Shown here: piece after piece, positions 1,966-56,439 of the stretch
How the letters are laid out: the number at the start of each line of letters is the position of its first letter
Position numbering within the stretch: the first letter of the stretch is position 1
Source of the DNA: Octopus vulgaris
Lineage: Eukaryota
Direction: 5' to 3'
Assembly (NCBI GenBank): GCA_951406725.2
Contig: OX597835.1
Location: 37,758,001-37,822,000, forward strand
Length of the DNA stretch: 64,000 nt
Made by a program: the position numbers and the translations under genes
Notes under the pieces: model-generated
What the model saw: the letters and a program-made list of their open reading frames with translations, nothing else
Database searches by the model: none
Told to the model about the DNA's origin: nothing

Positions 1966-2171
1966 GACTTCTTTCAGTTTCTGTCTATTAAATCCATTCA
2001 CAAGAGTTTGGTAGGCCCGAGGCTATAGTAGGCCATAGTATTGGAAAAACTGTTTTGGACCTGGGTTTACAGACCCATAACCAAATTTCATTCTTGTGCC
2101 AGTGGATGTAGATGTAGATTGGATAGATAGACGCATCAACATAACCATTATCATTTAACATCCATTTAACA

Positions 2172-5100
2172 TTATCGACAATGCCGTCCCCAGTCAAATT
2201 CCCTCACACCGCTTATTGTCACGTGTCCCTTGACCTCTCTCTCTAACTAACCCTATCTCTCTCTCGCTATGTTCCCCCCTTCCCATAACCATCATCGCCA
2301 TGGTCCTCTATGCCCCCCCACTCCCCAAAACCATCATCGCCATACATAAAAGAGCGATCGCATTTATCGTTAACCCCACTCGCTTCAAAATATCTAAAGA
2401 ATACGCACAGATCATGAATGGCTAAAAGTTAAGTGAATCGTTCAACCTCGCTACGACTACCTTCTTTCTTGCACTTATCCTTACTCTTTCTCTATTCTTC
2501 AATTTCCATCTCATTGTATTGTCCCTCATTCTTTCAGTATTCCCTCATTACCCTGTCTAGCTCAAACATTTTTTTCGTTTAGACTTGTCTCCAGGTTCAT
2601 AGCCACTCTGATTTTTCAATTTTTCGTTTAGTATTGTCTCCCGATTCATACTAACCCATTTGCTAGCTCACGATTAACAGAACCTCTTTACTCAGCTACG
2701 GTGTTATATTAGCTATCAATAATGATATTCCCTCTGATTTTTCTGATTTTCAAACCTATTTATCTAATGTTTATTTATCGACAATGCCGTCCCCAGTCAA
2801 ATTCCCTCACACCGCTTATTGTCACGTGTCCCTTGACCTCTCTCTCTAACTAACCCTATCTCTCTCTCGCTATGTTCCCCCCTTCCCATAACCATCATCG
2901 CCATGGTCCTCTATGCCCCCCCCCCACTCCCCAAAACCATCATCGCCATACATAAAAGAGCGATCGCATTTATCGTTAACCCCACTCGCTTCAAAATATC
3001 TAAAGAATACGCACAGATCATGAATGGCTAAAAGTTAAGTGAATCGTTCAACCTCGCTACGACTACCTTCTTTCTTGCACTTATCCTTACTCTTTCTCTA
3101 TTCTTCAATTTCCATCTCATTGTATTGTCCCTCATTCTTTCAGTATTCCCTCATTACCCTGTCTAGCTCAAACATTTTTTTTCGTTTAGACTTGTCTCCA
3201 GGTTCATAGCCACTCTGATTTTTCAATTTTTCGTTCAGTATTGTCTCCCGATTCATACTAACCCATTTGCTAGCTCACGATTAACAGAACCTCTTTACTC
3301 AGCTACGGTGTTATATTAGCTATCAATAATGATATTCCCTCTGATTTTTCTGATTTTCAAACCTATTTATCTAATGTTTATTTATCGACAATGCCGTCCC
3401 CAGTCAAATTCCCTCACACCGCTTATTGTCACGTGTCCCTTGACCTCTCTCTCTAACTAACCCTATCTCTCTCTCGCTATGTTCCCCCCTTCCCATAACC
3501 ATCATCGCCATGGTCCTCTATGCCCCCCCCACTCCCCAAAACCATCATCGCCATACATAAAAGAGCGATCGCATTTATCGTTAACCCCACTCGCTTCAAA
3601 ATATCTAAAGAATACGCACAGATCATGAATGGCTAAAAGTTAAGTGAATCGTTCAACCTCGCTACGACTACCTTCTTTCTTGCACTTATCCTTACTCTTT
3701 CTCTATTCTTCAATTTCCATCTCATTGTATTGTCCCTCATTCTTTCAGTATTCCCTCATTACCCTGTCTAGCTCAAACATTTTTTTCGTTTAGACTTGTC
3801 TCCAGGTTCATAGCCACTCTGATTTTTCAATTTTTCGTTTAGTATTGTCTCCCGATTCATACTAACCCATTTGCTAGCTCACGATTAACAGAACCTCTTT
3901 ACTCAGCTACGGTGTTATATTAGCTATCAATAATGATATTCCCTCTGATTTTTCTGATTTTCAAACCTATTTATCTAATGTTTATTTATCGACAATGCCG
4001 TCCCCAGTCAAATTCCCTCACACCGCTTATTGTCACGTGTCCCTTGACCTCTCTCTCTAACTAACCCTATCTCTCTCTCGCTATGTTCCCCCCCTTCCCA
4101 TAACCATCATCGCCATGGTCCTCTATGCCCCCCCCCACTCCCCAAAACCATCATCGCCATACATAAAAGAGCGATCGCATTTATCGTTAACCCCACTCGC
4201 TTCAAAATATCTAAAGAATACGCACAGATCATGAATGGCTAAAAGTTAAGTGAATCGTTCAACCTCGCTACGACTACCTTCTTTCTTGCACTTATCCTTA
4301 CTCTTTCTCTATTCTTCAATTTCCATCTCATTGTATTGTCCCTCATTCTTTCAGTATTCCCTCATTACCCTGTCTAGCTCAAACATTTTTTTTCGTTTAG
4401 ACTTGTCTCCAGGTTCATAGCCACTCTGATTTTTCAATTTTTCGTTCAGTATTGTCTCCCGATTCATACTAACCCATTTGCTAGCTCACGATTAACAGAA
4501 CCTCTTTACTCAGCTACGGTGTTATATTAGCTATCAATAATGATATTCCCTCTGATTTTTCTGATTTTCAAACCTATTTATCTAATGTTTATTTATCGAC
4601 AATGCCGTCCCCAGTCAAATTCCCTCACACCGCTTATTGTCACGTGTCCCTTGACCTCTCTCTCTAACTAACCCTATCTCTCTCTCGCTATGTTCCCCCC
4701 TTCCCATAACCATCATCGCCATGGTCCTCTATGCCCCCCACTCCCCAAAACCATCATCGCCATACATAAAAGAGCGATCGCATTTATCGTTAACCCCACT
4801 CGCTTCAAAATATCTAAAGTATACGCACAGATCATGAATGGCTAAAAGTTAAGTGAATCGTTCAACCTCGCTACGACTACCTTCTTTCTTGCACTTATCC
4901 TTACTCTTTCTCTATTCTTCAATTTCCATCTCATTGTATTGTCCCTCATTCTTTCAGTATTCCCTCATTACCCTGTCTAGCTCAAACATTTTTTTCGTTT
5001 AGACTTGTCTCCAGGTTCATAGCCACTCTGATTTTTCAATTTTTCGTTTAGTATTGTCTCCCGATTCATACTAACCCATTTGCTAGCTCACGATTAACAG

Positions 5101-8100
5101 AACCTCTTTACTCAGCTACGGTGTTATATTAGCTATCAATAATGATATTCCCTCTGATTTTTCTGATTTTCAAACCTATTTATCTAATGTTTATTTATCG
5201 ACAATGCCGTCCCCAGTCAAATTCCCTCACACCGCTTATTGTCACGTGTCCCTTGACCTCTCTCTCTAACTAACCCTATCTCTCTCTCGCTATGTTCCCC
5301 CCTTCCCATAACCATCATCGCCATGGTCCTCTATGCCCCCCCCCCACTCCCCAAAACCATCATCGCCATACATAAAAGAGCGATCGCATTTATCGTTAAC
5401 CCCACTCGCTTCAAAATATCTAAAGAATACGCACAGATCATGAATGGCTAAAAGTTAAGTGAATCGTTCAACCTCGCTACGACTACCTTCTTTCTTGCAC
5501 TTATCCTTACTCTTTCTCTATTCTTCAATTTCCATCTCATTGTATTGTCCCTCATTCTTTCAGTATTCCCTCATTACCCTGTCTAGCTCAAACATTTTTT
5601 TTCGTTTAGACTTGTCTCCAGGTTCATAGCCACTCTGATTTTTCAATTTTTCGTTCAGTATTGTCTCCCGATTCATACTAACCCATTTGCTAGCTCACGA
5701 TTAACAGAACCTCTTTACTCAGCTACGGTGTTATATTAGCTATCAATAATGATATTCCCTCTGATTTTTCTGATTTTCAAACCTATTTATCTAATGTTTA
5801 TTTATCGACAATGCCGTCCCCAGTCAAATTCCCTCACACCGCTTATTGTCACGTGTCCCTTGACCTCTCTCTCTAACTAACCCTATCTCTCTCTCGCTAT
5901 GTTCCCCCCCTTCCCATAACCATCATCGCCATGGTCCTCTATGCCCCCCCCCACTCCCCAAAACCATCATCGCCATACATAAAAGAGCGATCGCATTTAT
6001 CGTTAACCCCACTCGCTTCAAAATATCTAAAGTATACGCACAGATCATGAATGGCTAAAAGTTAAGTGAATCGTTCAACCTCGCTACGACTACCTTCTTT
6101 CTTGCACTTATCCTTACTCTTTCTCTATTCTTCAATTTCCATCTCATTGTATTGTCCCTCATTCTTTCAGTATTCCCTCATTACCCTGTCTAGCTCAAAC
6201 ATTTTTTTCGTTTAGACTTGTCTCCAGGTTCATAGCCACTCTGATTTTTCAATTTTTCGTTTAGTATTGTCTCCCGATTCATACTAACCCATTTGCTAGC
6301 TCACGATTAACAGAACCTCTTTACTCAGCTACGGTGTTATATTAGCTATCAATAATGATATTCCCTCTGATTTTTCTGATTTTCAAACCTATTTATCTAA
6401 TGTTTATTTATCGACAATGCCGTCCCCAGTCAAATTCCCTCACACCGCTTATTGTCACGTGTCCCTTGACCTCTCTCTCTAACTAACCCTATCTCTCTCT
6501 CGCTATGTTCCCCCCTTCCCATAACCATCATCGCCATGGTCCTCTATGCCCCCCCCACTCCCCAAAACCATCATCGCCATACATAAAAGAGCGATCGCAT
6601 TTATCGTTAACCCCACTCGCTTCAAAATATCTAAAGAATACGCACAGATCATGAATGGCTAAAAGTTAAGTGAATCGTTCAACCTCGCTACGACTACCTT
6701 CTTTCTTGCACTTATCCTTACTCTTTCTCTATTCTTCAATTTCCATCTCATTGTATTGTCCCTCATTCTTTCAGTATTCCCTCATTACCCTGTCTAGCTC
6801 AAACATTTTTTTTTTTTTTTTTCGTTTAGACTTGTCTCCAGGTTCATAGCCACTCTGATTTTTCAATTTTTCGTTTAGTATTGTCTCCCGATTCATACTA
6901 ACCCATTTGCTAGCTCACGATTAACAGAACCTCTTTACTCAGCTACGGTGTTATATTAGCTATCAATAATGATATTCCCTCTGATTTTTCTGATTTTCAA
7001 ACCTATTTATCTAATGTTTATTTATCGACAATGCCGTCCCCAGTCAAATTCCCTCACACCGCTTATTGTCACGTGTCCCTTGACCTCTCTCTCTAACTAA
7101 CCCTATCTCTCTCTCGCTATGTTCCCCCCTTCCCATAACCATCATCGCCATGGTCCTCTATGCCCCCCCCACTCCCCAAAACCATCATCGCCATACATAA
7201 AAGAGCGATCGCATTTATCGTTAACCCCACTCGCTTCAAAATATCTAAAGTATACGCACAGATCATGAATGGCTAAAAGTTAAGTGAATCGTTCAACCTC
7301 GCTACGACTACCTTCTTTCTTGCACTTATCCTTACTCTTTCTCTATTCTTCAATTTCCATCTCATTGTATTGTCCCTCATTCTTTCAGTATTCCCTCATT
7401 ACCCTGTCTAGCTCAAACATTTTTTTCGTTTAGACTTGTCTCCAGGTTCATAGCCACTCTGATTTTTCAATTTTTCGTTCAGTATTGTCTCCCGATTCAT
7501 ACTAACCCATTTGCTAGCTCACGATTAACAGAACCTCTTTACTCAGCTACGGTGTTATATTAGCTATCAATAATGATATTCCCTCTGATTTTTCTGATTT
7601 TCAAACCTATTTATCTAATGTTTATTTATCGACAATGCCGTCCCCAGTCAAATTCCCTCACACCGCTTATTGTCACGTGTCCCTTGACCTCTCTCTCTAA
7701 CTAACCCTATCTCTCTCTCGCTATGTTCCCCCCTTCCCATAACCATCATCGCCATGGTCCTCTATGCCCCCCCCACTCCCCAAAACCATCATCGCCATAC
7801 ATAAAAGAGCGATCGCATTTATCGTTAACCCCACTCGCTTCAAAATATCTAAAGAATACGCACAGATCATGAATGGCTAAAAGTTAAGTGAATCGTTCAA
7901 CCTCGCTACGACTACCTTCTTTCTTGCACTTATCCTTACTCTTTCTCTATTCTTCAATTTCCATCTCATTGTATTGTCCCTCATTCTTTCAGTATTCCCT
8001 CATTACCCTGTCTAGCTCAAACATTTTTTTCGTTTAGACTTGTCTCCAGGTTCATAGCCACTCTGATTTTTCAATTTTTCGTTTAGTATTGTCTCCCGAT

Positions 8101-11100
8101 TCATACTAACCCATTTGCTAGCTCACGATTAACAGAACCTCTTTACTCAGCTACGGTGTTATATTAGCTATCAATAATGATATTCCCTCTGATTTTTCTG
8201 ATTTTCAAACCTATTTATCTAATGTTTATTTATCGACAATGCCGTCCCCAGTCAAATTCCCTCACACCGCTTATTGTCACGTGTCCCTTGACCTCTCTCT
8301 CTAACTAACCCTATCTCTCTCTCGCTATGTTCCCCCCTTCCCATAACCATCATCGCCATGGTCCTCTATGCCCCCCCCACTCCCCAAAACCATCATCGCC
8401 ATACATAAAAGAGCGATCGCATTTATCGTTAACCCCACTCGCTTCAAAATATCTAAAGAATACGCACAGATCATGAATGGCTAAAAGTTAAGTGAATCGT
8501 TCAACCTCGCTACGACTACCTTCTTTCTTGCACTTATCCTTACTCTTTCTCTATTCTTCAATTTCCATCTCATTGTATTGTCCCTCATTCTTTCAGTATT
8601 CCCTCATTACCCTGTCTAGCTCAAACATTTTTTTTCGTTTAGACTTGTCTCCAGGTTCATAGCCACTCTGATTTTTCAATTTTTTTTTCGTTCAGTATTG
8701 TCTCCCGATTCATACTAACCCATTTGCTAGCTCACGATTAACAGAACCTCTTTACTCAGCTACGGTGTTATATTAGCTATCAATAATGATATTCCCTCTG
8801 ATTTTTCTGATTTTCAAACCTATTTATCTAATGTTTATTTATCGACAATGCCGTCCCCAGTCAAATTCCCTCACACCGCTTATTGTCACGTGTCCCTTGA
8901 CCTCTCTCTCTAACTAACCCTATCTCTCTCTCGCTATGTTCCCCCCCTTCCCATAACCATCATCGCCATGGTCCTCTATGCCCCCCCACTCCCCAAAACC
9001 ATCATCGCCATACATAAAAGAGCGATCGCATTTATCGTTAACCCCACTCGCTTCAAAATATCTAAAGTATACGCACAGATCATGAATGGCTAAAAGTTAA
9101 GTGAATCGTTCAACCTCGCTACGACTACCTTCTTTCTTGCACTTATCCTTACTCTTTCTCTATTCTTCAATTTCCATCTCATTGTATTGTCCCTCATTCT
9201 TTCAGTATTCCCTCATTACCCTGTCTAGCTCAAACATTTTTTTCGTTTAGACTTGTCTCCAGGTTCATAGCCACTCTGATTTTTCAATTTTTCGTTTAGT
9301 ATTGTCTCCCGATTCATACTAACCCATTTGCTAGCTCACGATTAACAGAACCTCTTTACTCAGCTACGGTGTTATATTAGCTATCAATAATGATATTCCC
9401 TCTGATTTTTCTGATTTTCAAACCTATTTATCTAATGTTTATTTATCGACAATGCCGTCCCCAGTCAAATTCCCTCACACCGCTTATTGTCACGTGTCCC
9501 TTGACCTCTCTCTCTAACTAACCCTATCTCTCTCTCGCTATGTTCCCCCCTTCCCATAACCATCATCGCCATGGTCCTCTATGCCCCCCCCCCACTCCCC
9601 AAAACCATCATCGCCATACATAAAAGAGCGATCGCATTTATCGTTAACCCCACTCGCTTCAAAATATCTAAAGTATACGCACAGATCATGAATGGCTAAA
9701 AGTTAAGTGAATCGTTCAACCTCGCTACGACTACCTTCTTTCTTGCACTTATCCTTACTCTTTCTCTATTCTTCAATTTCCATCTCATTGTATTGTCCCT
9801 CATTCTTTCAGTATTCCCTCATTACCCTGTCTAGCTCAAACATTTTTTTTCGTTTAGACTTGTCTCCAGGTTCATAGCCACTCTGATTTTTCAATTTTTC
9901 GTTCAGTATTGTCTCCCGATTCATACTAACCCATTTGCTAGCTCACGATTAACAGAACCTCTTTACTCAGCTACGGTGTTATATTAGCTATCAATAATGA
10001 TATTCCCTCTGATTTTTCTGATTTTCAAACCTATTTATCTAATGTTTATTTATCGACAATGCCGTCCCCAGTCAAATTCCCTCACACCGCTTATTGTCAC
10101 GTGTCCCTTGACCTCTCTCTCTAACTAACCCTATCTCTCTCTCGCTATGTTCCCCCCTTCCCATAACCATCATCGCCATGGTCCTCTATGCCCCCCCCCA
10201 CTCCCCAAAACCATCATCGCCATACATAAAAGAGCGATCGCATTTATCGTTAACCCCACTCGCTTCAAAATATCTAAAGTATACGCACAGATCATGAATG
10301 GCTAAAAGTTAAGTGAATCGTTCAACCTCGCTACGACTACCTTCTTTCTTGCACTTATCCTTACTCTTTCTCTATTCTTCAATTTCCATCTCATTGTATT
10401 GTCCCTCATTCTTTCAGTATTCCCTCATTACCCTGTCTAGCTCAAACATTTTTTTCGTTTAGACTTGTCTCCAGGTTCATAGCCACTCTGATTTTTCAAT
10501 TTTTCGTTTAGTATTGTCTCCCGATTCATACTAACCCATTTGCTAGCTCACGATTAACAGAACCTCTTTACTCAGCTACGGTGTTATATTAGCTATCAAT
10601 AATGATATTCCCTCTGATTTTTCTGATTTTCAAACCTATTTATCTAATGTTTATTTATCGACAATGCCGTCCCCAGTCAAATTCCCTCACACCGCTTATT
10701 GTCACGTGTCCCTTGACCTCTCTCTCTAACTAACCCTATCTCTCTCTCGCTATGTTCCCCCCCTTCCCATAACCATCATCGCCATGGTCCTCTATGCCCC
10801 CCCCCACTCCCCAAAACCATCATCGCCATACATAAAAGAGCGATCGCATTTATCGTTAACCCCACTCGCTTCAAAATATCTAAAGAATACGCACAGATCA
10901 TGAATGGCTAAAAGTTAAGTGAATCGTTCAACCTCGCTACGACTACCTTCTTTCTTGCACTTATCCTTACTCTTTCTCTATTCTTCAATTTCCATCTCAT
11001 TGTATTGTCCCTCATTCTTTCAGTATTCCCTCATTACCCTGTCTAGCTCAAACATTTTTTTCGTTTAGACTTGTCTCCAGGTTCATAGCCACTCTGATTT

Positions 11101-14100
11101 TTCAATTTTTCGTTTAGTATTGTCTCCCGATTCATACTAACCCATTTGCTAGCTCACGATTAACAGAACCTCTTTACTCAGCTACGGTGTTATATTAGCT
11201 ATCAATAATGATATTCCCTCTGATTTTTCTGATTTTCAAACCTATTTATCTAATGTTTATTTATCGACAATGCCGTCCCCAGTCAAATTCCCTCACACCG
11301 CTTATTGTCACGTGTCCCTTGACCTCTCTCTCTAACTAACCCTATCTCTCTCTCGCTATGTTCCCCCCCTTCCCATAACCATCATCGCCATGGTCCTCTA
11401 TCCCCCCCCCCCACTCCCCAAAACCATCATCGCCATACATAAAAGAGCGATCGCATTTATCGTTAACCCCACTCGCTTCAAAATATCTAAAGAATACGCA
11501 CAGATCATGAATGGCTAAAAGTTAAGTGAATCGTTCAACCTCGCTACGACTACCTTCTTTCTTGCACTTATCCTTACTCTTTCTCTATTCTTCAATTTCC
11601 ATCTCATTGTATTGTCCCTCATTCTTTCAGTATTCCCTCATTACCCTGTCTAGCTCAAACATTTTTTTCGTTTAGACTTGTCTCCAGGTTCATAGCCACT
11701 CTGATTTTTCAATTTTTCGTTCAGTATTGTCTCCCGATTCATACTAACCCATTTGCTAGCTCACGATTAACAGAACCTCTTTACTCAGCTACGGTGTTAT
11801 ATTAGCTATCAATAATGATATTCCCTCTGATTTTTCTGATTTTCAAACCTATTTATCTAATGTTTATTTATCGACAATGCCGTCCCCAGTCAAATTCCCT
11901 CACACCGCTTATTGTCACGTGTCCCTTGACCTCTCTCTCTAACTAACCCTATCTCTCTCTCGCTATGTTCCCCCCTTCCCATAACCATCATCGCCATGGT
12001 CCTCTATGCCCCCCCCCCACTCCCCAAAACCATCATCGCCATACATAAAAGAGCGATCGCATTTATCGTTAACCCCACTCGCTTCAAAATATCTAAAGTA
12101 TACGCACAGATCATGAATGGCTAAAAGTTAAGTGAATCGTTCAACCTCGCTACGACTACCTTCTTTCTTGCACTTATCCTTACTCTTTCTCTATTCTTCA
12201 ATTTCCATCTCATTGTATTGTCCCTCATTCTTTCAGTATTCCCTCATTACCCTGTCTAGCTCAAACATTTTTTTCGTTTAGACTTGTCTCCAGGTTCATA
12301 GCCACTCTGATTTTTCAATTTTTCGTTTAGTATTGTCTCCCGATTCATACTAACCCATTTGCTAGCTCACGATTAACAGAACCTCTTTACTCAGCTACGG
12401 TGTTATATTAGCTATCAATAATGATATTCCCTCTGATTTTTCTGATTTTCAAACCTATTTATCTAATGTTTATTTATCGACAATGCCGTCCCCAGTCAAA
12501 TTCCCTCACACCGCTTATTGTCACGTGTCCCTTGACCTCTCTCTCTAACTAACCCTATCTCTCTCTCGCTATGTTCCCCCCCTTCCCATAACCATCATCG
12601 CCATGGTCCTCTATGCCCCCCCACTCCCCAAAACCATCATCGCCATACATAAAAGAGCGATCGCATTTATCGTTAACCCCACTCGCTTCAAAATATCTAA
12701 AGAATACGCACAGATCATGAATGGCTAAAAGTTAAGTGAATCGTTCAACCTCGCTACGACTACCTTCTTTCTTGCACTTATCCTTACTCTTTCTCTATTC
12801 TTCAATTTCCATCTCATTGTATTGTCCCTCATTCTTTCAGTATTCCCTCATTACCCTGTCTAGCTCAAACATTTTTTTTTTTTTTTTTTTCGTTTAGACT
12901 TGTCTCCAGGTTCATAGCCACTCTGATTTTTCAATTTTTCGTTTAGTATTGTCTCCCGATTCATACTAACCCATTTGCTAGCTCACGATTAACAGAACCT
13001 CTTTACTCAGCTACGGTGTTATATTAGCTATCAATAATGATATTCCCTCTGATTTTTCTGATTTTCAAACCTATTTATCTAATGTTTATTTATCGACAAT
13101 GCCGTCCCCAGTCAAATTCCCTCACACCGCTTATTGTCACGTGTCCCTTGACCTCTCTCTCTAACTAACCCTATCTCTCTCTCGCTATGTTCCCCCCTTC
13201 CCATAACCATCATCGCCATGGTCCTCTATGCCCCCCCCCACTCCCCAAAACCATCATCGCCATACATAAAAGAGCGATCGCATTTATCGTTAACCCCACT
13301 CGCTTCAAAATATCTAAAGTATACGCACAGATCATGAATGGCTAAAAGTTAAGTGAATCGTTCAACCTCGCTACGACTACCTTCTTTCTTGCACTTATCC
13401 TTACTCTTTCTCTATTCTTCAATTTCCATCTCATTGTATTGTCCCTCATTCTTTCAGTATTCCCTCATTACCCTGTCTAGCTCAAACATTTTTTTTCGTT
13501 TAGACTTGTCTCCAGGTTCATAGCCACTCTGATTTTTCAATTTTTCGTTCAGTATTGTCTCCCGATTCATACTAACCCATTTGCTAGCTCACGATTAACA
13601 GAACCTCTTTACTCAGCTACGGTGTTATATTAGCTATCAATAATGATATTCCCTCTGATTTTTCTGATTTTCAAACCTATTTATCTAATGTTTATTTATC
13701 GACAATGCCGTCCCCAGTCAAATTCCCTCACACCGCTTATTGTCACGTGTCCCTTGACCTCTCTCTCTAACTAACCCTATCTCTCTCTCGCTATGTTCCC
13801 CCCTTCCCATAACCATCATCGCCATGGTCCTCTATGCCCCCCCCCACTCCCCAAAACCATCATCGCCATACATAAAAGAGCGATCGCATTTATCGTTAAC
13901 CCCACTCGCTTCAAAATATCTAAAGTATACGCACAGATCATGAATGGCTAAAAGTTAAGTGAATCGTTCAACCTCGCTACGACTACCTTCTTTCTTGCAC
14001 TTATCCTTACTCTTTCTCTATTCTTCAATTTCCATCTCATTGTATTGTCCCTCATTCTTTCAGTATTCCCTCATTACCCTGTCTAGCTCAAACATTTTTT

Positions 14101-17100
14101 TCGTTTAGACTTGTCTCCAGGTTCATAGCCACTCTGATTTTTCAATTTTTCGTTTAGTATTGTCTCCCGATTCATACTAACCCATTTGCTAGCTCACGAT
14201 TAACAGAACCTCTTTACTCAGCTACGGTGTTATATTAGCTATCAATAATGATATTCCCTCTGATTTTTCTGATTTTCAAACCTATTTATCTAATGTTTAT
14301 TTATCGACAATGCCGTCCCCAGTCAAATTCCCTCACACCGCTTATTGTCACGTGTCCCTTGACCTCTCTCTCTAACTAACCCTATCTCTCTCTCGCTATG
14401 TTCCCCCCTTCCCATAACCATCATCGCCATGGTCCTCTATGCCCCCCCCCCTCCCCAAAACCATCATCGCCATACATAAAAGAGCGATCGCATTTATCGT
14501 TAACCCCACTCGCTTCAAAATATCTAAAGAATACGCACAGATCATGAATGGCTAAAAGTTAAGTGAATCGTTCAACCTCGCTACGACTACCTTCTTTCTT
14601 GCACTTATCCTTACTCTTTCTCTATTCTTCAATTTCCATCTCATTGTATTGTCCCTCATTCTTTCAGTATTCCCTCATTACCCTGTCTAGCTCAAACATT
14701 TTTTTTCGTTTAGACTTGTCTCCAGGTTCATAGCCACTCTGATTTTTCAATTTTTCGTTCAGTATTGTCTCCCGATTCATACTAACCCATTTGCTAGCTC
14801 ACGATTAACAGAACCTCTTTACTCAGCTACGGTGTTATATTAGCTATCAATAATGATATTCCCTCTGATTTTTCTGATTTTCAAACCTATTTATCTAATG
14901 TTTATTTATCGACAATGCCGTCCCCAGTCAAATTCCCTCACACCGCTTATTGTCACGTGTCCCTTGACCTCTCTCTCTAACTAACCCTATCTCTCTCTCG
15001 CTATGTTCCCCCTTCCCATAACCATCATCGCCATGGTCCTCTATGCCCCCCCCACTCCCCAAAACCATCATCGCCATACATAAAAGAGCGATCGCATTTA
15101 TCGTTAACCCCACTCGCTTCAAAATATCTAAAGAATACGCACAGATCATGAATGGCTAAAAGTTAAGTGAATCGTTCAACCTCGCTACGACTACCTTCTT
15201 TCTTGCACTTATCCTTACTCTTTCTCTATTCTTCAATTTCCATCTCATTGTATTGTCCCTCATTCTTTCAGTATTCCCTCATTACCCTGTCTAGCTCAAA
15301 CATTTTTTTCGTTTAGACTTGTCTCCAGGTTCATAGCCACTCTGATTTTTCAATTTTTCGTTTAGTATTGTCTCCCGATTCATACTAACCCATTTGCTAG
15401 CTCACGATTAACAGAACCTCTTTACTCAGCTACGGTGTTATATTAGCTATCAATAATGATATTCCCTCTGATTTTTCTGATTTTCAAACCTATTTATCTA
15501 ATGTTTATTTATCGACAATGCCGTCCCCAGTCAAATTCCCTCACACCGCTTATTGTCACGTGTCCCTTGACCTCTCTCTCTAACTAACCCTATCTCTCTC
15601 TCGCTATGTTCCCCCCTTCCCATAACCATCATCGCCATGGTCCTCTATGCCCCCCCACTCCCCAAAACCATCATCGCCATACATAAAAGAGCGATCGCAT
15701 TTATCGTTAACCCCACTCGCTTCAAAATATCTAAAGAATACGCACAGATCATGAATGGCTAAAAGTTAAGTGAATCGTTCAACCTCGCTACGACTACCTT
15801 CTTTCTTGCACTTATCCTTACTCTTTCTCTATTCTTCAATTTCCATCTCATTGTATTGTCCCTCATTCTTTCAGTATTCCCTCATTACCCTGTCTAGCTC
15901 AAACATTTTTTTTCGTTTAGACTTGTCTCCAGGTTCATAGCCACTCTGATTTTTCAATTTTTCGTTCAGTATTGTCTCCCGATTCATACTAACCCATTTG
16001 CTAGCTCACGATTAACAGAACCTCTTTACTCAGCTACGGTGTTATATTAGCTATCAATAATGATATTCCCTCTGATTTTTCTGATTTTCAAACCTATTTA
16101 TCTAATGTTTATTTATCGACAATGCCGTCCCCAGTCAAATTCCCTCACACCGCTTATTGTCACGTGTCCCTTGACCTCTCTCTCTAACTAACCCTATCTC
16201 TCTCTCGCTATGTTCCCCCCTTCCCATAACCATCATCGCCATGGTCCTCTATGCCCCCCCCCACTCCCCAAAACCATCATCGCCATACATAAAAGAGCGA
16301 TCGCATTTATCGTTAACCCCACTCGCTTCAAAATATCTAAAGTATACGCACAGATCATGAATGGCTAAAAGTTAAGTGAATCGTTCAACCTCGCTACGAC
16401 TACCTTCTTTCTTGCACTTATCCTTACTCTTTCTCTATTCTTCAATTTCCATCTCATTGTATTGTCCCTCATTCTTTCAGTATTCCCTCATTACCCTGTC
16501 TAGCTCAAACATTTTTTTCGTTTAGACTTGTCTCCAGGTTCATAGCCACTCTGATTTTTCAATTTTTCGTTTAGTATTGTCTCCCGATTCATACTAACCC
16601 ATTTGCTAGCTCACGATTAACAGAACCTCTTTACTCAGCTACGGTGTTATATTAGCTATCAATAATGATATTCCCTCTGATTTTTCTGATTTTCAAACCT
16701 ATTTATCTAATGTTTATTTATCGACAATGCCGTCCCCAGTCAAATTCCCTCACACCGCTTATTGTCACGTGTCCCTTGACCTCTCTCTCTAACTAACCCT
16801 ATCTCTCTCTCGCTATGTTCCCCCCTTCCCATAACCATCATCGCCATGGTCCTCTATGCCCCCCCCCCCACTCCCCAAAACCATCATCGCCATACATAAA
16901 AGAGCGATCGCATTTATCGTTAACCCCACTCGCTTCAAAATATCTAAAGTATACGCACAGATCATGAATGGCTAAAAGTTAAGTGAATCGTTCAACCTCG
17001 CTACGACTACCTTCTTTCTTGCACTTATCCTTACTCTTTCTCTATTCTTCAATTTCCATCTCATTGTATTGTCCCTCATTCTTTCAGTATTCCCTCATTA

Positions 17101-20100
17101 CCCTGTCTAGCTCAAACATTTTTTTTCGTTTAGACTTGTCTCCAGGTTCATAGCCACTCTGATTTTTCAATTTTTCGTTCAGTATTGTCTCCCGATTCAT
17201 ACTAACCCATTTGCTAGCTCACGATTAACAGAACCTCTTTACTCAGCTACGGTGTTATATTAGCTATCAATAATGATATTCCCTCTGATTTTTCTGATTT
17301 TCAAACCTATTTATCTAATGTTTATTTATCGACAATGCCGTCCCCAGTCAAATTCCCTCACACCGCTTATTGTCACGTGTCCCTTGACCTCTCTCTCTAA
17401 CTAACCCTATCTCTCTCTCGCTATGTTCCCCCCCTTCCCATAACCATCATCGCCATGGTCCTCTATGCCCCCCCCACTCCCCAAAACCATCATCGCCATA
17501 CATAAAAGAGCGATCGCATTTATCGTTAACCCCACTCGCTTCAAAATATCTAAAGTATACGCACAGATCATGAATGGCTAAAAGTTAAGTGAATCGTTCA
17601 ACCTCGCTACGACTACCTTCTTTCTTGCACTTATCCTTACTCTTTCTCTATTCTTCAATTTCCATCTCATTGTATTGTCCCTCATTCTTTCAGTATTCCC
17701 TCATTACCCTGTCTAGCTCAAACATTTTTTTCGTTTAGACTTGTCTCCAGGTTCATAGCCACTCTGATTTTTCAATTTTTCGTTTAGTATTGTCTCCCGA
17801 TTCATACTAACCCATTTGCTAGCTCACGATTAACAGAACCTCTTTACTCAGCTACGGTGTTATATTAGCTATCAATAATGATATTCCCTCTGATTTTTCT
17901 GATTTTCAAACCTATTTATCTAATGTTTATTTATCGACAATGCCGTCCCCAGTCAAATTCCCTCACACCGCTTATTGTCACGTGTCCCTTGACCTCTCTC
18001 TCTAACTAACCCTATCTCTCTCTCGCTATGTTCCCCCCTTCCCATAACCATCATCGCCATGGTCCTCTATGCCCCCCCCCACTCCCCAAAACCATCATCG
18101 CCATACATAAAAGAGCGATCGCATTTATCGTTAACCCCACTCGCTTCAAAATATCTAAAGAATACGCACAGATCATGAATGGCTAAAAGTTAAGTGAATC
18201 GTTCAACCTCGCTACGACTACCTTCTTTCTTGCACTTATCCTTACTCTTTCTCTATTCTTCAATTTCCATCTCATTGTATTGTCCCTCATTCTTTCAGTA
18301 TTCCCTCATTACCCTGTCTAGCTCAAACATTTTTTTTCGTTTAGACTTGTCTCCAGGTTCATAGCCACTCTGATTTTTCAATTTTTCGTTCAGTATTGTC
18401 TCCCGATTCATACTAACCCATTTGCTAGCTCACGATTAACAGAACCTCTTTACTCAGCTACGGTGTTATATTAGCTATCAATAATGATATTCCCTCTGAT
18501 TTTTCTGATTTTCAAACCTATTTATCTAATGTTTATTTATCGACAATGCCGTCCCCAGTCAAATTCCCTCACACCGCTTATTGTCACGTGTCCCTTGACC
18601 TCTCTCTCTAACTAACCCTATCTCTCTCTCGCTATGTTCCCCCCTTCCCATAACCATCATCGCCATGGTCCTCTATGCCCCCCCCCCCACTCCCCAAAAC
18701 CATCATCGCCATACATAAAAGAGCGATCGCATTTATCGTTAACCCCACTCGCTTCAAAATATCTAAAGTATACGCACAGATCATGAATGGCTAAAAGTTA
18801 AGTGAATCGTTCAACCTCGCTACGACTACCTTCTTTCTTGCACTTATCCTTACTCTTTCTCTATTCTTCAATTTCCATCTCATTGTATTGTCCCTCATTC
18901 TTTCAGTATTCCCTCATTACCCTGTCTAGCTCAAACATTTTTTTCGTTTAGACTTGTCTCCAGGTTCATAGCCACTCTGATTTTTCAATTTTTCGTTTAG
19001 TATTGTCTCCCGATTCATACTAACCCATTTGCTAGCTCACGATTAACAGAACCTCTTTACTCAGCTACGGTGTTATATTAGCTATCAATAATGATATTCC
19101 CTCTGATTTTTCTGATTTTCAAACCTATTTATCTAATGTTTATTTATCGACAATGCCGTCCCCAGTCAAATTCCCTCACACCGCTTATTGTCACGTGTCC
19201 CTTGACCTCTCTCTCTAACTAACCCTATCTCTCTCTCGCTATGTTCCCCCTTCCCATAACCATCATCGCCATGGTCCTCTATGCCCCCCCCCCCACTCCC
19301 CAAAACCATCATCGCCATACATAAAAGAGCGATCGCATTTATCGTTAACCCCACTCGCTTCAAAATATCTAAAGAATACGCACAGATCATGAATGGCTAA
19401 AAGTTAAGTGAATCGTTCAACCTCGCTACGACTACCTTCTTTCTTGCACTTATCCTTACTCTTTCTCTATTCTTCAATTTCCATCTCATTGTATTGTCCC
19501 TCATTCTTTCAGTATTCCCTCATTACCCTGTCTAGCTCAAACATTTTTTTTTTTTTTTTTTTCGTTTAGACTTGTCTCCAGGTTCATAGCCACTCTGATT
19601 TTTCAATTTTTCGTTTAGTATTGTCTCCCGATTCATACTAACCCATTTGCTAGCTCACGATTAACAGAACCTCTTTACTCAGCTACGGTGTTATATTAGC
19701 TATCAATAATGATATTCCCTCTGATTTTTCTGATTTTCAAACCTATTTATCTAATGTTTATTTATCGACAATGCCGTCCCCAGTCAAATTCCCTCACACC
19801 GCTTATTGTCACGTGTCCCTTGACCTCTCTCTCTAACTAACCCTATCTCTCTCTCGCTATGTTCCCCCCTTCCCATAACCATCATCGCCATGGTCCTCTA
19901 TGCCCCCCCCCACTCCCCAAAACCATCATCGCCATACATAAAAGAGCGATCGCATTTATCGTTAACCCCACTCGCTTCAAAATATCTAAAGTATACGCAC
20001 AGATCATGAATGGCTAAAAGTTAAGTGAATCGTTCAACCTCGCTACGACTACCTTCTTTCTTGCACTTATCCTTACTCTTTCTCTATTCTTCAATTTCCA

Positions 20101-23100
20101 TCTCATTGTATTGTCCCTCATTCTTTCAGTATTCCCTCATTACCCTGTCTAGCTCAAACATTTTTTTTCGTTTAGACTTGTCTCCAGGTTCATAGCCACT
20201 CTGATTTTTCAATTTTTCGTTCAGTATTGTCTCCCGATTCATACTAACCCATTTGCTAGCTCACGATTAACAGAACCTCTTTACTCAGCTACGGTGTTAT
20301 ATTAGCTATCAATAATGATATTCCCTCTGATTTTTCTGATTTTCAAACCTATTTATCTAATGTTTATTTATCGACAATGCCGTCCCCAGTCAAATTCCCT
20401 CACACCGCTTATTGTCACGTGTCCCTTGACCTCTCTCTCTAACTAACCCTATCTCTCTCTCGCTATGTTCCCCCCTTCCCATAACCATCATCGCCATGGT
20501 CCTCTATGCCCCCCCCCACTCCCCAAAACCATCATCGCCATACATAAAAGAGCGATCGCATTTATCGTTAACCCCACTCGCTTCAAAATATCTAAAGAAT
20601 ACGCACAGATCATGAATGGCTAAAAGTTAAGTGAATCGTTCAACCTCGCTACGACTACCTTCTTTCTTGCACTTATCCTTACTCTTTCTCTATTCTTCAA
20701 TTTCCATCTCATTGTATTGTCCCTCATTCTTTCAGTATTCCCTCATTACCCTGTCTAGCTCAAACATTTTTTTCGTTTAGACTTGTCTCCAGGTTCATAG
20801 CCACTCTGATTTTTCAATTTTTCGTTTAGTATTGTCTCCCGATTCATACTAACCCATTTGCTAGCTCACGATTAACAGAACCTCTTTACTCAGCTACGGT
20901 GTTATATTAGCTATCAATAATGATATTCCCTCTGATTTTTCTGATTTTCAAACCTATTTATCTAATGTTTATTTATCGACAATGCCGTCCCCAGTCAAAT
21001 TCCCTCACACCGCTTATTGTCACGTGTCCCTTGACCTCTCTCTCTAACTAACCCTATCTCTCTCTCGCTATGTTCCCCCCTTCCCATAACCATCATCGCC
21101 ATGGTCCTCTATGCCCCCCCCCCCACTCCCCAAAACCATCATCGCCATACATAAAAGAGCGATCGCATTTATCGTTAACCCCACTCGCTTCAAAATATCT
21201 AAAGAATACGCACAGATCATGAATGGCTAAAAGTTAAGTGAATCGTTCAACCTCGCTACGACTACCTTCTTTCTTGCACTTATCCTTACTCTTTCTCTAT
21301 TCTTCAATTTCCATCTCATTGTATTGTCCCTCATTCTTTCAGTATTCCCTCATTACCCTGTCTAGCTCAAACATTTTTTTTCGTTTAGACTTGTCTCCAG
21401 GTTCATAGCCACTCTGATTTTTCAATTTTTCGTTCAGTATTGTCTCCCGATTCATACTAACCCATTTGCTAGCTCACGATTAACAGAACCTCTTTACTCA
21501 GCTACGGTGTTATATTAGCTATCAATAATGATATTCCCTCTGATTTTTCTGATTTTCAAACCTATTTATCTAATGTTTATTTATCGACAATGCCGTCCCC
21601 AGTCAAATTCCCTCACACCGCTTATTGTCACGTGTCCCTTGACCTCTCTCTCTAACTAACCCTATCTCTCTCTCGCTATGTTCCCCCCTTCCCATAACCA
21701 TCATCGCCATGGTCCTCTATGCCCCCCCCCCACTCCCCAAAACCATCATCGCCATACATAAAAGAGCGATCGCATTTATCGTTAACCCCACTCGCTTCAA
21801 AATATCTAAAGAATACGCACAGATCATGAATGGCTAAAAGTTAAGTGAATCGTTCAACCTCGCTACGACTACCTTCTTTCTTGCACTTATCCTTACTCTT
21901 TCTCTATTCTTCAATTTCCATCTCATTGTATTGTCCCTCATTCTTTCAGTATTCCCTCATTACCCTGTCTAGCTCAAACATTTTTTTCGTTTAGACTTGT
22001 CTCCAGGTTCATAGCCACTCTGATTTTTCAATTTTTCGTTTAGTATTGTCTCCCGATTCATACTAACCCATTTGCTAGCTCACGATTAACAGAACCTCTT
22101 TACTCAGCTACGGTGTTATATTAGCTATCAATAATGATATTCCCTCTGATTTTTCTGATTTTCAAACCTATTTATCTAATGTTTATTTATCGACAATGCC
22201 GTCCCCAGTCAAATTCCCTCACACCGCTTATTGTCACGTGTCCCTTGACCTCTCTCTCTAACTAACCCTATCTCTCTCTCGCTATGTTCCCCCCTTCCCA
22301 TAACCATCATCGCCATGGTCCTCTATGCCCCCCCCCACTCCCCAAAACCATCATCGCCATACATAAAGAGCGATCGCATTTATCGTTAACCCCACTCGCT
22401 TCAAAATATCTAAAGAATACGCACAGATCATGAATGGCTAAAAGTTAAGTGAATCGTTCAACCTCGCTACGACTACCTTCTTTCTTGCACTTATCCTTAC
22501 TCTTTCTCTATTCTTCAATTTCCATCTCATTGTATTGTCCCTCATTCTTTCAGTATTCCCTCATTACCCTGTCTAGCTCAAACATTTTTTTTTTCGTTTA
22601 GACTTGTCTCCAGGTTCATAGCCACTCTGATTTTTCAATTTTTCGTTTAGTATTGTCTCCCGATTCATACTAACCCATTTGCTAGCTCACGATTAACAGA
22701 ACCTCTTTACTCAGCTACGGTGTTATATTAGCTATCAATAATGATATTCCCTCTGATTTTTCTGATTTTCAAACCTATTTATCTAATGTTTATTTATCGA
22801 CAATGCCGTCCCCAGTCAAATTCCCTCACACCGCTTATTGTCACGTGTCCCTTGACCTCTCTCTCTAACTAACCCTATCTCTCTCTCGCTATGTTCCCCC
22901 CTTCCCATAACCATCATCGCCATGGTCCTCTATGCCCCCCCCACTCCCCAAAACCATCATCGCCATACATAAAAGAGCGATCGCATTTATCGTTAACCCC
23001 ACTCGCTTCAAAATATCTAAAGAATACGCACAGATCATGAATGGCTAAAAGTTAAGTGAATCGTTCAACCTCGCTACGACTACCTTCTTTCTTGCACTTA

Positions 23101-26100
23101 TCCTTACTCTTTCTCTATTCTTCAATTTCCATCTCATTGTATTGTCCCTCATTCTTTCAGTATTCCCTCATTACCCTGTCTAGCTCAAACATTTTTTTTC
23201 GTTTAGACTTGTCTCCAGGTTCATAGCCACTCTGATTTTTCAATTTTTCGTTTAGTATTGTCTCCCGATTCATACTAACCCATTTGCTAGCTCACGATTA
23301 ACAGAACCTCTTTACTCAGCTACGGTGTTATATTAGCTATCAATAATGATATTCCCTCTGATTTTTCTGATTTTCAAACCTATTTATCTAATGTTTATTT
23401 ATCGACAATGCCGTCCCCAGTCAAATTCCCTCACACCGCTTATTGTCACGTGTCCCTTGACCTCTCTCTCTAACTAACCCTATCTCTCTCTCGCTATGTT
23501 CCCCCCTTCCCATAACCATCATCGCCATGGTCCTCTATGCCCCCCCACTCCCCAAAACCATCATCGCCATACATAAAAGAGCGATCGCATTTATCGTTAA
23601 CCCCACTCGCTTCAAAATATCTAAAGAATACGCACAGATCATGAATGGCTAAAAGTTAAGTGAATCGTTCAACCTCGCTACGACTACCTTCTTTCTTGCA
23701 CTTATCCTTACTCTTTCTCTATTCTTCAATTTCCATCTCATTGTATTGTCCCTCATTCTTTCAGTATTCCCTCATTACCCTGTCTAGCTCAAACATTTTT
23801 TTCGTTTAGACTTGTCTCCAGGTTCATAGCCACTCTGATTTTTCAATTTTTCGTTTAGTATTGTCTCCCGATTCATACTAACCCATTTGCTAGCTCACGA
23901 TTAACAGAACCTCTTTACTCAGCTACGGTGTTATATTAGCTATCAATAATGATATTCCCTCTGATTTTTCTGATTTTCAAACCTATTTATCTAATGTTTA
24001 TTTATCGACAATGCCGTCCCCAGTCAAATTCCCTCACACCGCTTATTGTCACGTGTCCCTTGACCTCTCTCTCTAACTAACCCTATCTCTCTCTCGCTAT
24101 GTTCCCCCCTTCCCATAACCATCATCGCCATGGTCCTCTATGCCCCCCCCCACTCCCCAAAACCATCATCGCCATACATAAAAGAGCGATCGCATTTATC
24201 GTTAACCCCACTCGCTTCAAAATATCTAAAGAATACGCACAGATCATGAATGGCTAAAAGTTAAGTGAATCGTTCAACCTCGCTACGACTACCTTCTTTC
24301 TTGCACTTATCCTTACTCTTTCTCTATTCTTCAATTTCCATCTCATTGTATTGTCCCTCATTCTTTCAGTATTCCCTCATTACCCTGTCTAGCTCAAACA
24401 TTTTTTTTCGTTTAGACTTGTCTCCAGGTTCATAGCCACTCTGATTTTTCAATTTTTCGTTCAGTATTGTCTCCCGATTCATACTAACCCATTTGCTAGC
24501 TCACGATTAACAGAACCTCTTTACTCAGCTACGGTGTTATATTAGCTATCAATAATGATATTCCCTCTGATTTTTCTGATTTTCAAACCTATTTATCTAA
24601 TGTTTATTTATCGACAATGCCGTCCCCAGTCAAATTCCCTCACACCGCTTATTGTCACGTGTCCCTTGACCTCTCTCTCTAACTAACCCTATCTCTCTCT
24701 CGCTATGTTCCCCCCTTCCCATAACCATCATCGCCATGGTCCTCTATGCCCCCCCCACTCCCCAAAACCATCATCGCCATACATAAAAGAGCGATCGCAT
24801 TTATCGTTAACCCCACTCGCTTCAAAATATCTAAAGTATACGCACAGATCATGAATGGCTAAAAGTTAAGTGAATCGTTCAACCTCGCTACGACTACCTT
24901 CTTTCTTGCACTTATCCTTACTCTTTCTCTATTCTTCAATTTCCATCTCATTGTATTGTCCCTCATTCTTTCAGTATTCCCTCATTACCCTGTCTAGCTC
25001 AAACATTTTTTTTCGTTTAGACTTGTCTCCAGGTTCATAGCCACTCTGATTTTTCAATTTTTCGTTTAGTATTGTCTCCCGATTCATACTAACCCATTTG
25101 CTAGCTCACGATTAACAGAACCTCTTTACTCAGCTACGGTGTTATATTAGCTATCAATAATGATATTCCCTCTGATTTTTCTGATTTTCAAACCTATTTA
25201 TCTAATGTTTATTTATCGACAATGCCGTCCCCAGTCAAATTCCCTCACACCGCTTATTGTCACGTGTCCCTTGACCTCTCTCTCTAACTAACCCTATCTC
25301 TCTCTCGCTATGTTCCCCCCTTCCCATAACCATCATCGCCATGGTCCTCTATGCCCCCCCCACTCCCCAAAACCATCATCGCCATACATAAAAGAGCGAT
25401 CGCATTTATCGTTAACCCCACTCGCTTCAAAATATCTAAAGAATACGCACAGATCATGAATGGCTAAAAGTTAAGTGAATCGTTCAACCTCGCTACGACT
25501 ACCTTCTTTCTTGCACTTATCCTTACTCTTTCTCTATTCTTCAATTTCCATCTCATTGTATTGTCCCTCATTCTTTCAGTATTCCCTCATTACCCTGTCT
25601 AGCTCAAACATTTTTTTTTTTTTTTTCGTTTAGACTTGTCTCCAGGTTCATAGCCACTCTGATTTTTCAATTTTTCGTTTAGTATTGTCTCCCGATTCAT
25701 ACTAACCCATTTGCTAGCTCACGATTAACAGAACCTCTTTACTCAGCTACGGTGTTATATTAGCTATCAATAATGATATTCCCTCTGATTTTTCTGATTT
25801 TCAAACCTATTTATCTAATGTTTATTTATCGACAATGCCGTCCCCAGTCAAATTCCCTCACACCGCTTATTGTCACGTGTCCCTTGACCTCTCTCTCTAA
25901 CTAACCCTATCTCTCTCTCGCTATGTTCCCCCCTTCCCATAACCATCATCGCCATGGTCCTCTATGCCCCCCCCCACTCCCCAAAACCATCATCGCCATA
26001 CATAAAAGAGCGATCGCATTTATCGTTAACCCCACTCGCTTCAAAATATCTAAAGTATACGCACAGATCATGAATGGCTAAAAGTTAAGTGAATCGTTCA

Positions 26101-26966
26101 ACCTCGCTACGACTACCTTCTTTCTTGCACTTATCCTTACTCTTTCTCTATTCTTCAATTTCCATCTCATTGTATTGTCCCTCATTCTTTCAGTATTCCC
26201 TCATTACCCTGTCTAGCTCAAACATTTTTTTTCGTTTAGACTTGTCTCCAGGTTCATAGCCACTCTGATTTTTCAATTTTTCGTTCAGTATTGTCTCCCG
26301 ATTCATACTAACCCATTTGCTAGCTCACGATTAACAGAACCTCTTTACTCAGCTACGGTGTTATATTAGCTATCAATAATGATATTCCCTCTGATTTTTC
26401 TGATTTTCAAACCTATTTATCTAATGTTTATTTATCGACAATGCCGTCCCCAGTCAAATTCCCTCACACCGCTTATTGTCACGTGTCCCTTGACCTCTCT
26501 CTCTAACTAACCCTATCTCTCTCTCGCTATGTTCCCCCCTTCCCATAACCATCATCGCCATGGTCCTCTATGCCCCCCCCCCACTCCCCAAAACCATCAT
26601 CGCCATACATAAAAGAGCGATCGCATTTATCGTTAACCCCACTCGCTTCAAAATATCTAAAGTATACGCACAGATCATGAATGGCTAAAAGTTAAGTGAA
26701 TCGTTCAACCTCGCTACGACTACCTTCTTTCTTGCACTTATCCTTACTCTTTCTCTATTCTTCAATTTCCATCTCATTGTATTGTCCCTCATTCTTTCAG
26801 TATTCCCTCATTACCCTGTCTAGCTCAAACATTTTTTTCGTTTAGACTTGTCTCCAGGTTCATAGCCACTCTGATTTTTCAATTTTTCGTTTAGTATTGT
26901 CTCCCGATTCATACTAACCCATTTGCTAGCTCACGATTAACAGAACCTCTTTACTCAGCTACGGTG
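2172..26966 (+). repeat. Tandem array of 41 near-identical ~605 bp units attached to the 5' end of the RTE LINE
   Basis: Marker ATCGACAATGCCGTCCCC recurs at 2174, 2777, 3384, 3988 ... 25828, 26434. Units differ almost only in homopolymer lengths and two SNPs. The last unit ends at ...CAGCTACGGTG and runs into the unique LINE leader. Confidence 0.98.
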
Positions 26967-26968
26967 CA

Positions 26969-27081
26969 CCCGCCCTCCCACCCCCACCACGCATGCCGGA
27001 AGTTCCTATTCTCTTCCATTCCGGGGTTGCTTCCCATGAAGACTGCAAATGCTCTCACCATCCCTACCCCTCCCTACCCCT
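26969..27081 (-). promoter_or_regulatory. Two G-quadruplex-type motifs and a GC box in the LINE leader
   Basis: Plus strand CCCGCCCTCCCACCCCC (26969-26985) and CCCTACCCCTCCCTACCCC (27062-27080) each give four G-tracts with 1-2 nt loops on the minus strand. Function unproven. Confidence 0.45.
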
Positions 27082-27138
27082 AGTCTCGACCTATGTAAGG
27101 TAATGTTCATACAGTGCAAAATATGAAAGGCTAGCGTT

Positions 27139-30306: not shown

Positions 30307-30918
30307 GTCCACAACCCGTGGCCTTCTACATGGGATGGAGCCAGCCTACGTATGCATACCTTCCCTTCTTGGGACACAAAACTCTACTTGTGAAGACGTG
30401 TTGAGGCAAGTGAGGATCAGAATCGAAATCGATCAATGGAAATTGCGGATGTGCTACCAGTGCCGGTGGCATGTCGAAACTCTGCTTGTGAAGACCCATT
30501 GAGGCAAGTGAGGATCAGAATCGAAATCGATCAATGGAAATCGATCAATGGAAATTGCAGATGTGTTACCAGTGCCGGTGGCATGTAAGAGAACCTTCCG
30601 TTTCGCGACCGTTGCCAGCACCGCCCCGTTTCGTGTTCGTTGCCAGCCTCGCCTGGCCCTCGTGCCGGTGGCACATAAAAAACACCATACGTTCGTGGCC
30701 GTTTGCCAGCTCTGGCTGGCACCAGTGCGGGTGGCACGTAAAAAGCACCCACTACACTCACGGAGTGGTTGGCGTTAGGAAGGGCATCCAGCCGTAGAAA
30801 CACTGCCAGATTTGACTGGGCCTGATGAAGCCTTCTGGCTTCACGGACCCCAGCAGAACCGTCCAACCCATGCTAGCATGGAAAACGGACGCTAAATGAT
30901 GATGATGATGATGATGAT

Positions 30919-56192: not shown

Positions 56193-56439
56193 GGCATCAA
56201 TGCACACTGCCCCCCCCCTTCACTGATATGAGACCCAGCTTGCTAGATCAGCTGGTTATCAAATAAAACTCAATATTCTTCTAGCCATTGCTCATCGTCT
56301 CTTTTTAACCAAATCCAGTGGCTAGCCTTCTCCACTGTAGATTGGATATCGGTCATGGTGGTATTGACTTTACGATGAGTTAGGCCTAATGATAACAACA
56401 GTCGTCTCACACTGTGTCCAACATCCATTGTTGTAACGG

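What the first reader, a model, noticed from the sequence alone, without database searches (positions are those of the whole stretch)
2172..26966. Higher-order structure inside the array: a dimer nested in a 10/11/10-unit superperiod
Seen: an expanded T run (16-19 T instead of 7-8) after CTCAAACA occurs only in units 8, 18, 29 and 39 (~6806, 12872, 19544, 25611). Each of these carries AAAGAATAC and is flanked by AAAGTATAC units, with a CGTTCAG unit next. Elsewhere units mostly alternate T7+CGTTTAGTA with T8+CGTTCAGTA. Inference: stepwise monomer to dimer to ~6 kb block duplication, i.e. a very young higher-order satellite. This favours expansion by unequal exchange over one rolling-circle RT event, and argues against a pure assembly artefact.
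Basis: partly seen in the sequence, partly recalled or inferred. Interest (0 to 1): 0.7.

Follow-up and report, generated by a model that had tools for sequence, protein, structure and literature searches.

The report
Ordered promoter array of young retrotransposon
This 25-kb repeat is not a free-standing satellite but the front end of a very young jumping gene: 41 copies of a likely promoter unit whose variants form a near-duplicated 21-unit block, likely built by rapid local re-duplication after the gene landed, which would give a dated example of how higher-order repeats begin.

Summary
The significant period is 21 units (15 of 20 match; family-wise p 0.004 against a neighbour-preserving null), not 10 or 11. 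The array is the 5' monomer region of an intact RTE-type LINE: 67 of 70 loci examined carry the same monomer directly in front of the same element, with 0.1 to 41 copies. Both point variants are private to this locus, occur in all four combinations, and appear to be present in one public short-read run at about the assembled number. Long arrays sit on elements with almost no private change, so they form fast. Best reading: a likely promoter array, as in rodent L1, expanded in place by DNA-level unequal exchange. Building by the reverse transcriptase, or two alleles stacked by the assembler, are not excluded. The scan noted this family before on other DNA of this genome (e1-8670260); the order inside the arrays and its timing are what is added here.

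The parts
2160..2164 (+). Candidate target-site duplication, left copy (ATCCA), followed by 7 extra bases (2165-2171) that repeat upstream sequence
   Evidence: left and right flanks are two abutting halves of one older reverse-oriented repeat tail, overlapping by about 5 bases
2172..26966 (+). 41 tandem monomers of about 605 bp: the 5' array of the LINE; last unit ends at monomer position 530
2345..2378 (+). TATA-like box (2345-2352) and initiator-like site (A at 2378; monomer position 205), repeated in every monomer; predicted start site
   Evidence: 17 of 70 copies begin in the 60 bases after it, 2 in the 60 before; motifs named from recall, activity untested
2174..14907 (+). First copy of the 21-unit block (units 1-21)
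14908..26966 (+). Second copy of the 21-unit block (units 22-41); differs from the first in units 3, 4 versus 24, 25 and 12-14 versus 33-35
5197..7627 (+). Four-unit core 1 (units 6-9) with T17 at 6806-6822
11263..13697 (+). Four-unit core 2 (units 16-19) with T19 at 12872-12890
17933..20369 (+). Four-unit core 3 (units 27-30) with T19 at 19544-19562
24004..26433 (+). Four-unit core 4 (units 37-40) with T16 at 25611-25626
26967..27126 (+). Short unique leader (tether) between array and ORF; no room for an ORF1
27127..30306 (+). Single open frame of 1059 codons (stop to stop; first ATG 27139): endonuclease, reverse transcriptase, PHD-like finger
30307..30918 (+). 3' UTR with short internal repeats and a (TGA)n tail at 30897-30918
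30917..30921 (+). Candidate target-site duplication, right copy (ATCCA)

Best explanation
The 41 units are the tandem 5' monomers of a very young RTE-type LINE, likely its promoter, and their order likely records rapid expansion at this locus by unequal exchange between DNA copies. Shown: the monomer is the fixed 5' part of one LINE family, copy number varies from 0.1 to 41, the two substitutions are private to this locus, the order is non-random with a 21-unit top period. Inferred: each monomer holds a start site, so daughters lose monomers and the family must regrow them; a short founder array with a few differing monomers was duplicated as dimers, then as ~10-unit blocks with single-unit gains and losses, then once as a 21-unit block, with conversion or crossover inside monomers mixing the alleles. 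The order is likely a by-product, not a function.
For: All 70 loci examined end the array at monomer position 515-530 (66 at 530), and 67 have the same element at 95% or better directly behind it; 5' ends are ragged and 3' ends carry (TGA)n tails. Array plus LINE split one older repeat with a ~5-base overlap. The two alleles occur 17 and 15 times in the genome by exact pattern, all in this array (the 16th C unit has a longer T run). All four combinations occur in either phase. All 40 full units have one ATTTTTCA copy, while the nearest relatives (1 substitution in 3330 bases) mostly have two; two sister elements 1 substitution apart have arrays with mainly one and mainly three copies, so arrays turn over locally. 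6 of 52 junction-ascertained loci have 10 or more units where an exponential fitted to the 46 short ones predicts 0.005. 8 of 10 arrays of 6+ units have at most 1 private body substitution, against 11 of 51 shorter ones (p 0.0008). A second locus shows its own 7-unit block twice, with long T tied to a 32-base insertion (p 0.04). Run X6 has residual depth 497 and 602 at the two sites against 62.5 for a unique flank. Mouse L1 has a 50-monomer promoter ascribed to unequal crossing-over (PMC6454616, passages).
Against: No long read was seen, so order on one molecule is unproven. Zero private change in the body leaves very little time for 41 units and four derived changes to arise by ordinary recombination, unless this copy is a source element (it shares its one derived change with one short copy). 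A 24-base unit amplified 39 times in one sibling and short duplications at several 5' junctions point to a slippage-prone reverse transcriptase. All six lag-21 differences go to the family-majority allele in two tracts, which polishing could also do. The first clustering test of 5' ends was not significant (p 0.09 and 0.19); the best standardised window lay at the unit boundary, not at the predicted start. The monomer lacks the YY1 motif and is only 40% G+C. Clade RTE was not tested by a tree.
Confidence: 0.6

Rival explanations
1. The reverse transcriptase builds the array during insertion by repeatedly jumping back in register (on the RNA, or on its own cDNA during second-strand synthesis), so long, ordered arrays are born in one event.
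For: Long arrays sit on bodies with no private change; heavy-tailed length distribution; 24-base unit x39 in one sibling, stutter of the 8-base unit and of the T run across siblings, duplications at 5' junctions; 0 of 8 arrays of 10+ units start in the 100 bases after the predicted start site against 22 of 62 others, and 7 of 8 start near the unit boundary (post hoc, p 0.05 and 0.003). Expansion during second-strand priming is a published model for mouse monomers (PMC6454616, passages).
Against: Errors made while copying RNA cannot spread to 16-17 units unless the product is recopied; both alleles are absent from every other locus of the assembly; a 12.7 kb in-register repeat is far longer than the junction duplications seen; the same paper thinks the priming model unlikely for very long arrays.
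Confidence: 0.2
2. The units and alleles are real but the top-level 21-unit repeat is an assembly effect: two alleles of about 20 units were joined head to tail, or polishing reshuffled alleles.
For: Exactly one near-duplication spans the whole array; the residual depths in X6 fit 16-19 copies per diploid genome, which is the same for one 41-unit allele and for two ~20-unit alleles; homopolymer jitter shows consensus noise.
Against: The four-unit core recurs twice within each half, so order remains even then; another locus also ends in a twofold block; the flank contigs of X6 and X20 both stop at 2164, the end of the candidate duplication, in sequence unique in the assembly, a weak hint of a fork between empty and filled alleles rather than two filled ones.
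Confidence: 0.12
3. The array is a faithful copy of a long, already ordered donor array carried on a ~29 kb transcript; the donor is not in this assembly.
For: One insertion site holds array and LINE; several equally young copies have 6-24 units.
Against: No other locus has the alleles; sister copies differ array-wide; most copies end within two monomers; the array does not begin at the predicted start site.
Confidence: 0.07
4. A free-standing satellite into whose end a LINE happened to insert.
For: Size and homogeneity of the array.
Against: The monomer was not found as an array without the element: 67 of 70 loci have the same element at the same junction, no monomer follows the 3' tail, and monomer divergence tracks body divergence.
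Confidence: 0.01

Closest known systems
Mouse L1Md monomer promoters (A, Gf, Tf; PMC6454616, passages read) and rat L1 monomers (~650 bp; PMC5381506, passages read)
   Same: Tandem monomers at the 5' end, short tether, copy number varying between insertions, 5' ends stepping at a site inside the monomer, rare very long arrays (50 monomers in mouse, ascribed to unequal crossing-over).
   Different: Single-ORF element without ORF1, in an invertebrate; 605-bp, 40% G+C monomer without the YY1 motif; 6 of 52 copies have 10+ units (mean about 3 in mouse); arrays up to 25 kb with locus-private higher-order order; promoter activity untested.
Retrotransposon-derived satellites, e.g. Ogre-derived arrays of Lathyrus sativus (PMC7004042, abstract) and the cases tabulated in PMC9659126 (passages)
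   Same: Short arrays inside a dispersed retroelement that occasionally expand.
   Different: Non-LTR element, 5' side, still attached to an intact element; expansions are dispersed; no array without the element was found.
Higher-order repeats of primate alpha satellite (definition from the listing of PMC4431391; other details recalled)
   Same: A larger unit made of several monomers is itself repeated.
   Different: Monomers differ by under one substitution on average, the large unit occurs twice, no sign of centromeric role.
RTE-2_OV of Octopus vulgaris (PMC9115989, section 6 and passages)
   Same: Full-length single-ORF endonuclease-RT LINE with microsatellite 3' end.
   Different: 1109 aa with a C2H2 finger; three published primers mismatch this element at 5-7 positions; the word 'tandem' does not occur in that paper's main text.

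Membership tests
RTE-clade non-LTR retrotransposon | Single ORF with APE endonuclease and reverse transcriptase (feature recalled) | tested here: met
RTE-clade non-LTR retrotransposon | No ORF1 (feature recalled) | tested here: met
   160 bases between array and ORF; longest open stretch in monomers 64 codons
RTE-clade non-LTR retrotransposon | Microsatellite 3' tail, ragged 5' ends | tested here: met
   PMC9115989 section 6 calls microsatellites common in RTE
RTE-clade non-LTR retrotransposon | RT groups with named RTE elements in a tree | not tested
   one search gave 1253 relatives, none of the 120 listed named as RTE; no named reference was at hand
Rodent-L1-type monomer promoter | Tandem monomers at the 5' end, tether, variable number | tested here: met
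Rodent-L1-type monomer promoter | 5' ends of copies step up at a start site inside the monomer | tested here: inconclusive
Rodent-L1-type monomer promoter | Promoter activity of the monomer | not testable with these tools
   only contigs were available for the runs
Rodent-L1-type monomer promoter | G+C-rich CpG island with YY1 motif; L1 clade with ORF1 | tested here: not met
   40% G+C, 20 CpG against 19 expected, no GCCATCTT
Higher-order satellite repeat | Multi-monomer unit repeated in tandem | tested here: met
   21-unit block twice, four-unit core four times
Higher-order satellite repeat | Diverged monomers, many near-identical higher-order copies, array independent of a mobile element (features recalled) | tested here: not met
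RTE-2_OV | Sequence identity with the published element | tested here: not met
   primer mismatches 7, 7, 5; ORF length and finger type differ

The most novel reading that the evidence does not exclude
This LINE's reverse transcriptase regenerates its own promoter by repeated in-register jumps and can write a 25-kb array, complete with higher-order order, in a single insertion event; retrotransposition itself would then be a one-step source of satellite-like higher-order repeats, and the long-array copies the family's source elements.
Probability: 0.2. Interest if true: 0.78.

Novelty: new variant of a known kind. Interest (0 to 1): 0.5.

Why it matters
How monomer promoters of LINEs are lengthened is an open question (PMC6454616 calls the mechanism unclear), and so is how higher-order repeats start. 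Here each array is tied to a LINE body that serves as a clock and to one insertion site with an empty allele to compare. At least eight arrays of 10-41 units, several with private order, sit on bodies with almost no change, so both questions can be tested on long reads of a few animals. The periodic pattern itself is likely a by-product and modest on its own.

Tried and rejected
Rfam on 25800-27300: no match at E up to 1, so no known ribozyme at the 5' end. Lags 10 and 11 as true periods: not significant. C-run lengths as markers: no signal, dropped. Absence of the two alleles from runs X20, X19, X5 is not used: these are contigs that drop minor alleles, and other letters common in the young subfamily are missing there too. 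No RNA holder is on record; cover of the monomer in runs guessed to be RNA is not used as evidence of expression. Target-site duplications at most other loci are ambiguous because the sites are (TA)n repeats. First scan of 5' end clustering not significant. The second LINE as a monomer-specific parasite: rejected as exclusive, only 4 of 25 ends lie at the monomer site. Identity with RTE-2_OV: rejected. Nine of 70 bodies were left out of the tree and counts (not one hit of 3100+ bases at 97.5%+). Protein homolog search gave no clade name. Pfam found nothing in five other window ORFs. Literature searches showed no paper on 5' monomer arrays of an RTE element or on this family; Repbase/Dfam and the supplements of PMC13282606 (repeat library) were not seen and may hold it.

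Full report
Observation. The window holds 41 tandem units of about 605 bp from 2172 to 26966. Outside homopolymers only two positions vary: A/T (17 T) and T/C (16 C). T runs of 17, 19, 19 and 16 lie in units 8, 18, 29 and 39 at the coordinates given, each inside the same four-unit context; only 2 of 12,650 placements do as well. The period is not quite as named: under plain shuffling and under a shuffle that keeps neighbour frequencies the only robust lag is 21 (15 of 20 units; family-wise p 0.004), while lags 10 and 11 are not significant. Blocks 1 and 3, and 2 and 4, align without indels. So 10/11/10 is a 21-unit block present twice, itself made of two related ~10-unit blocks.

What the array is. 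Directly behind the last unit lie a 160-base leader, one open frame of 1059 codons with endonuclease, reverse transcriptase and a PHD-like finger, and a (TGA)n tail at 30897-30918. The two outer flanks are the abutting halves of one older reverse-oriented repeat, overlapping by about five bases, ATCCA, so array and LINE occupy one insertion site. A search of the own genome (2.8 Gb; an octopus by repeat style, which is my recall and inference, not a tool result) found the unit at many other places. I fetched all 52 loci with the exact array-LINE junction and 18 more. All 70 end the array at monomer position 515-530, 66 at 530; 67 have the same element at 95% or better behind it, one has an 85-87% relative, one is rearranged, one had no hit. 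They hold 262 of the 294 exact hits of a conserved 22-mer. 5' ends are ragged and targets are mostly (TA)n. The monomer is therefore the 5' part of the LINE, present in 0.1 to 41 copies; eight loci have ten or more.

Likely role. The layout matches rodent L1: tandem monomers, tether, variable number (PMC6454616 and PMC5381506, passages). This test was chosen after seeing the data; an unselected scan was not significant and a second cluster lies at the unit boundary. Promoter activity is untested. The monomer has no YY1 motif, 40% G+C, no long ORF and no Rfam match.

How the order arose. Both alleles occur only in this array in the whole assembly (17 and 15 exact hits). All four combinations exist whichever way the unit is phased, which needs exchange inside monomers or recurrent change. 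All 40 full units have one copy of an 8-base motif, whereas the nearest relatives, 1 substitution away in 3330 bases, mostly have two; two sister elements 1 substitution apart have mainly one and mainly three. Arrays thus turn over locally. Lengths are heavy-tailed: 6 of 52 have 10+ units, 0.005 expected from the 46 short ones. Among 61 bodies compared (9 of 70 left out), 8 of 10 with 6+ units have at most one private substitution against 11 of 51 others (p 0.0008; also within the 24 youngest, p 0.001). Long arrays are therefore either the newest insertions or the source copies; this copy shares its only derived change with one short copy, which fits either. Order is not unique to this locus: a 19-unit array alternates 594- and 635-base monomers, with long T tied to a 32-base insertion, and ends in a 7-unit block twice (p 0.04), while other long arrays are nearly uniform.

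Artefact. No long reads were available. In contigs of run X6, depth not accounted for by the majority letter is 497 and 602 at the two sites, against 62.5 for a unique flank contig: about 16 and 19 copies per diploid genome if the flank is on both homologues, close to 17 and 16. The residual is not listed by letter, and X6 may be the assembly's own sample, so this supports real alleles, not independent occurrence. It cannot tell one 41-unit allele from two stacked ~20-unit alleles; flank contigs of X6 and X20 both stop at 2164 in unique sequence, a weak hint of an empty allele. All six lag-21 differences go to the majority allele in two tracts, as conversion or polishing would give.

Verdict. 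Identity as a LINE 5' monomer array is near certain. I put DNA-level unequal exchange after insertion at 0.6, building by the reverse transcriptase at 0.2 (a 24-base unit x39 in a sibling, junction duplications, long arrays not starting at the predicted start), allele stacking at 0.12, a faithful 29-kb copy at 0.07. It is a new variant of the rodent L1 monomer design in an RTE-type element (clade not tested by tree; one search gave no name; not RTE-2_OV). Eight paper searches showed no description; repeat databases and supplements were not seen. Papers seen: PMC6454616, PMC5381506, PMC9659126, PMC7140322 passages; PMC9115989 section 6 and passages; PMC13282606 first third of the text; PMC7004042 abstract; PMC4431391 listing only. 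The scan had noted the family and the second LINE on other DNA; I reached the family reading before that look-up (notes).

Noticed in passing
L021:4281-9553 (G000:C9); also L111, L112, L124: A 5.27-kb two-ORF LINE (zinc knuckle; endonuclease, RT, zf-RVT; Tx1-like by recall) sits in the monomer at position 202-217 with a 16-base duplication at three independent loci, and its 3' end abuts the same site at a fourth; 4 of 25 exact 3' ends in the genome lie there, others at different repeated targets, nine in one tandem cluster.
   Followed up: partly
L024:5975-6865 (G000:C18): A 24-base unit of the leader, single in the other 69 loci, is amplified 39 times between array and ORF in a copy with no private body change.
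   Followed up: partly
G000:C29:30239013-30250562 (L056, L057): 19-unit array of the same family alternating 594- and 635-base monomers, with a 7-unit block twice.
   Followed up: partly
L063-L070, L034-L035, L028-L029, L021-L022: Further long arrays of 31, 24, 18, 14, 13 and 10 units, each with its own predominant monomer variant.
   Followed up: partly
5' junctions of L026, L052, L075, L077: Short tandem duplications (8-22 bases) of monomer sequence at the 5' end of the insertion.
   Followed up: no
window 49973-50472: 16-base minisatellite, about 31 copies, 72% matches, with a 128-base higher period.
   Followed up: no
window 53573-54170: G+C-richer stretch with overlapping open frames of 104-179 codons on both strands; no Pfam hit in the three scanned.
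   Followed up: partly
window 39203-39490 (-) and 56270-56611 (-): Short frames that look by eye like a LINE C-terminal nuclease fragment and a mariner-like transposase fragment (recall); no Pfam hit.
   Followed up: partly
window 258-636: Two tandem copies of a 185-base interspersed repeat, 89% alike.
   Followed up: no
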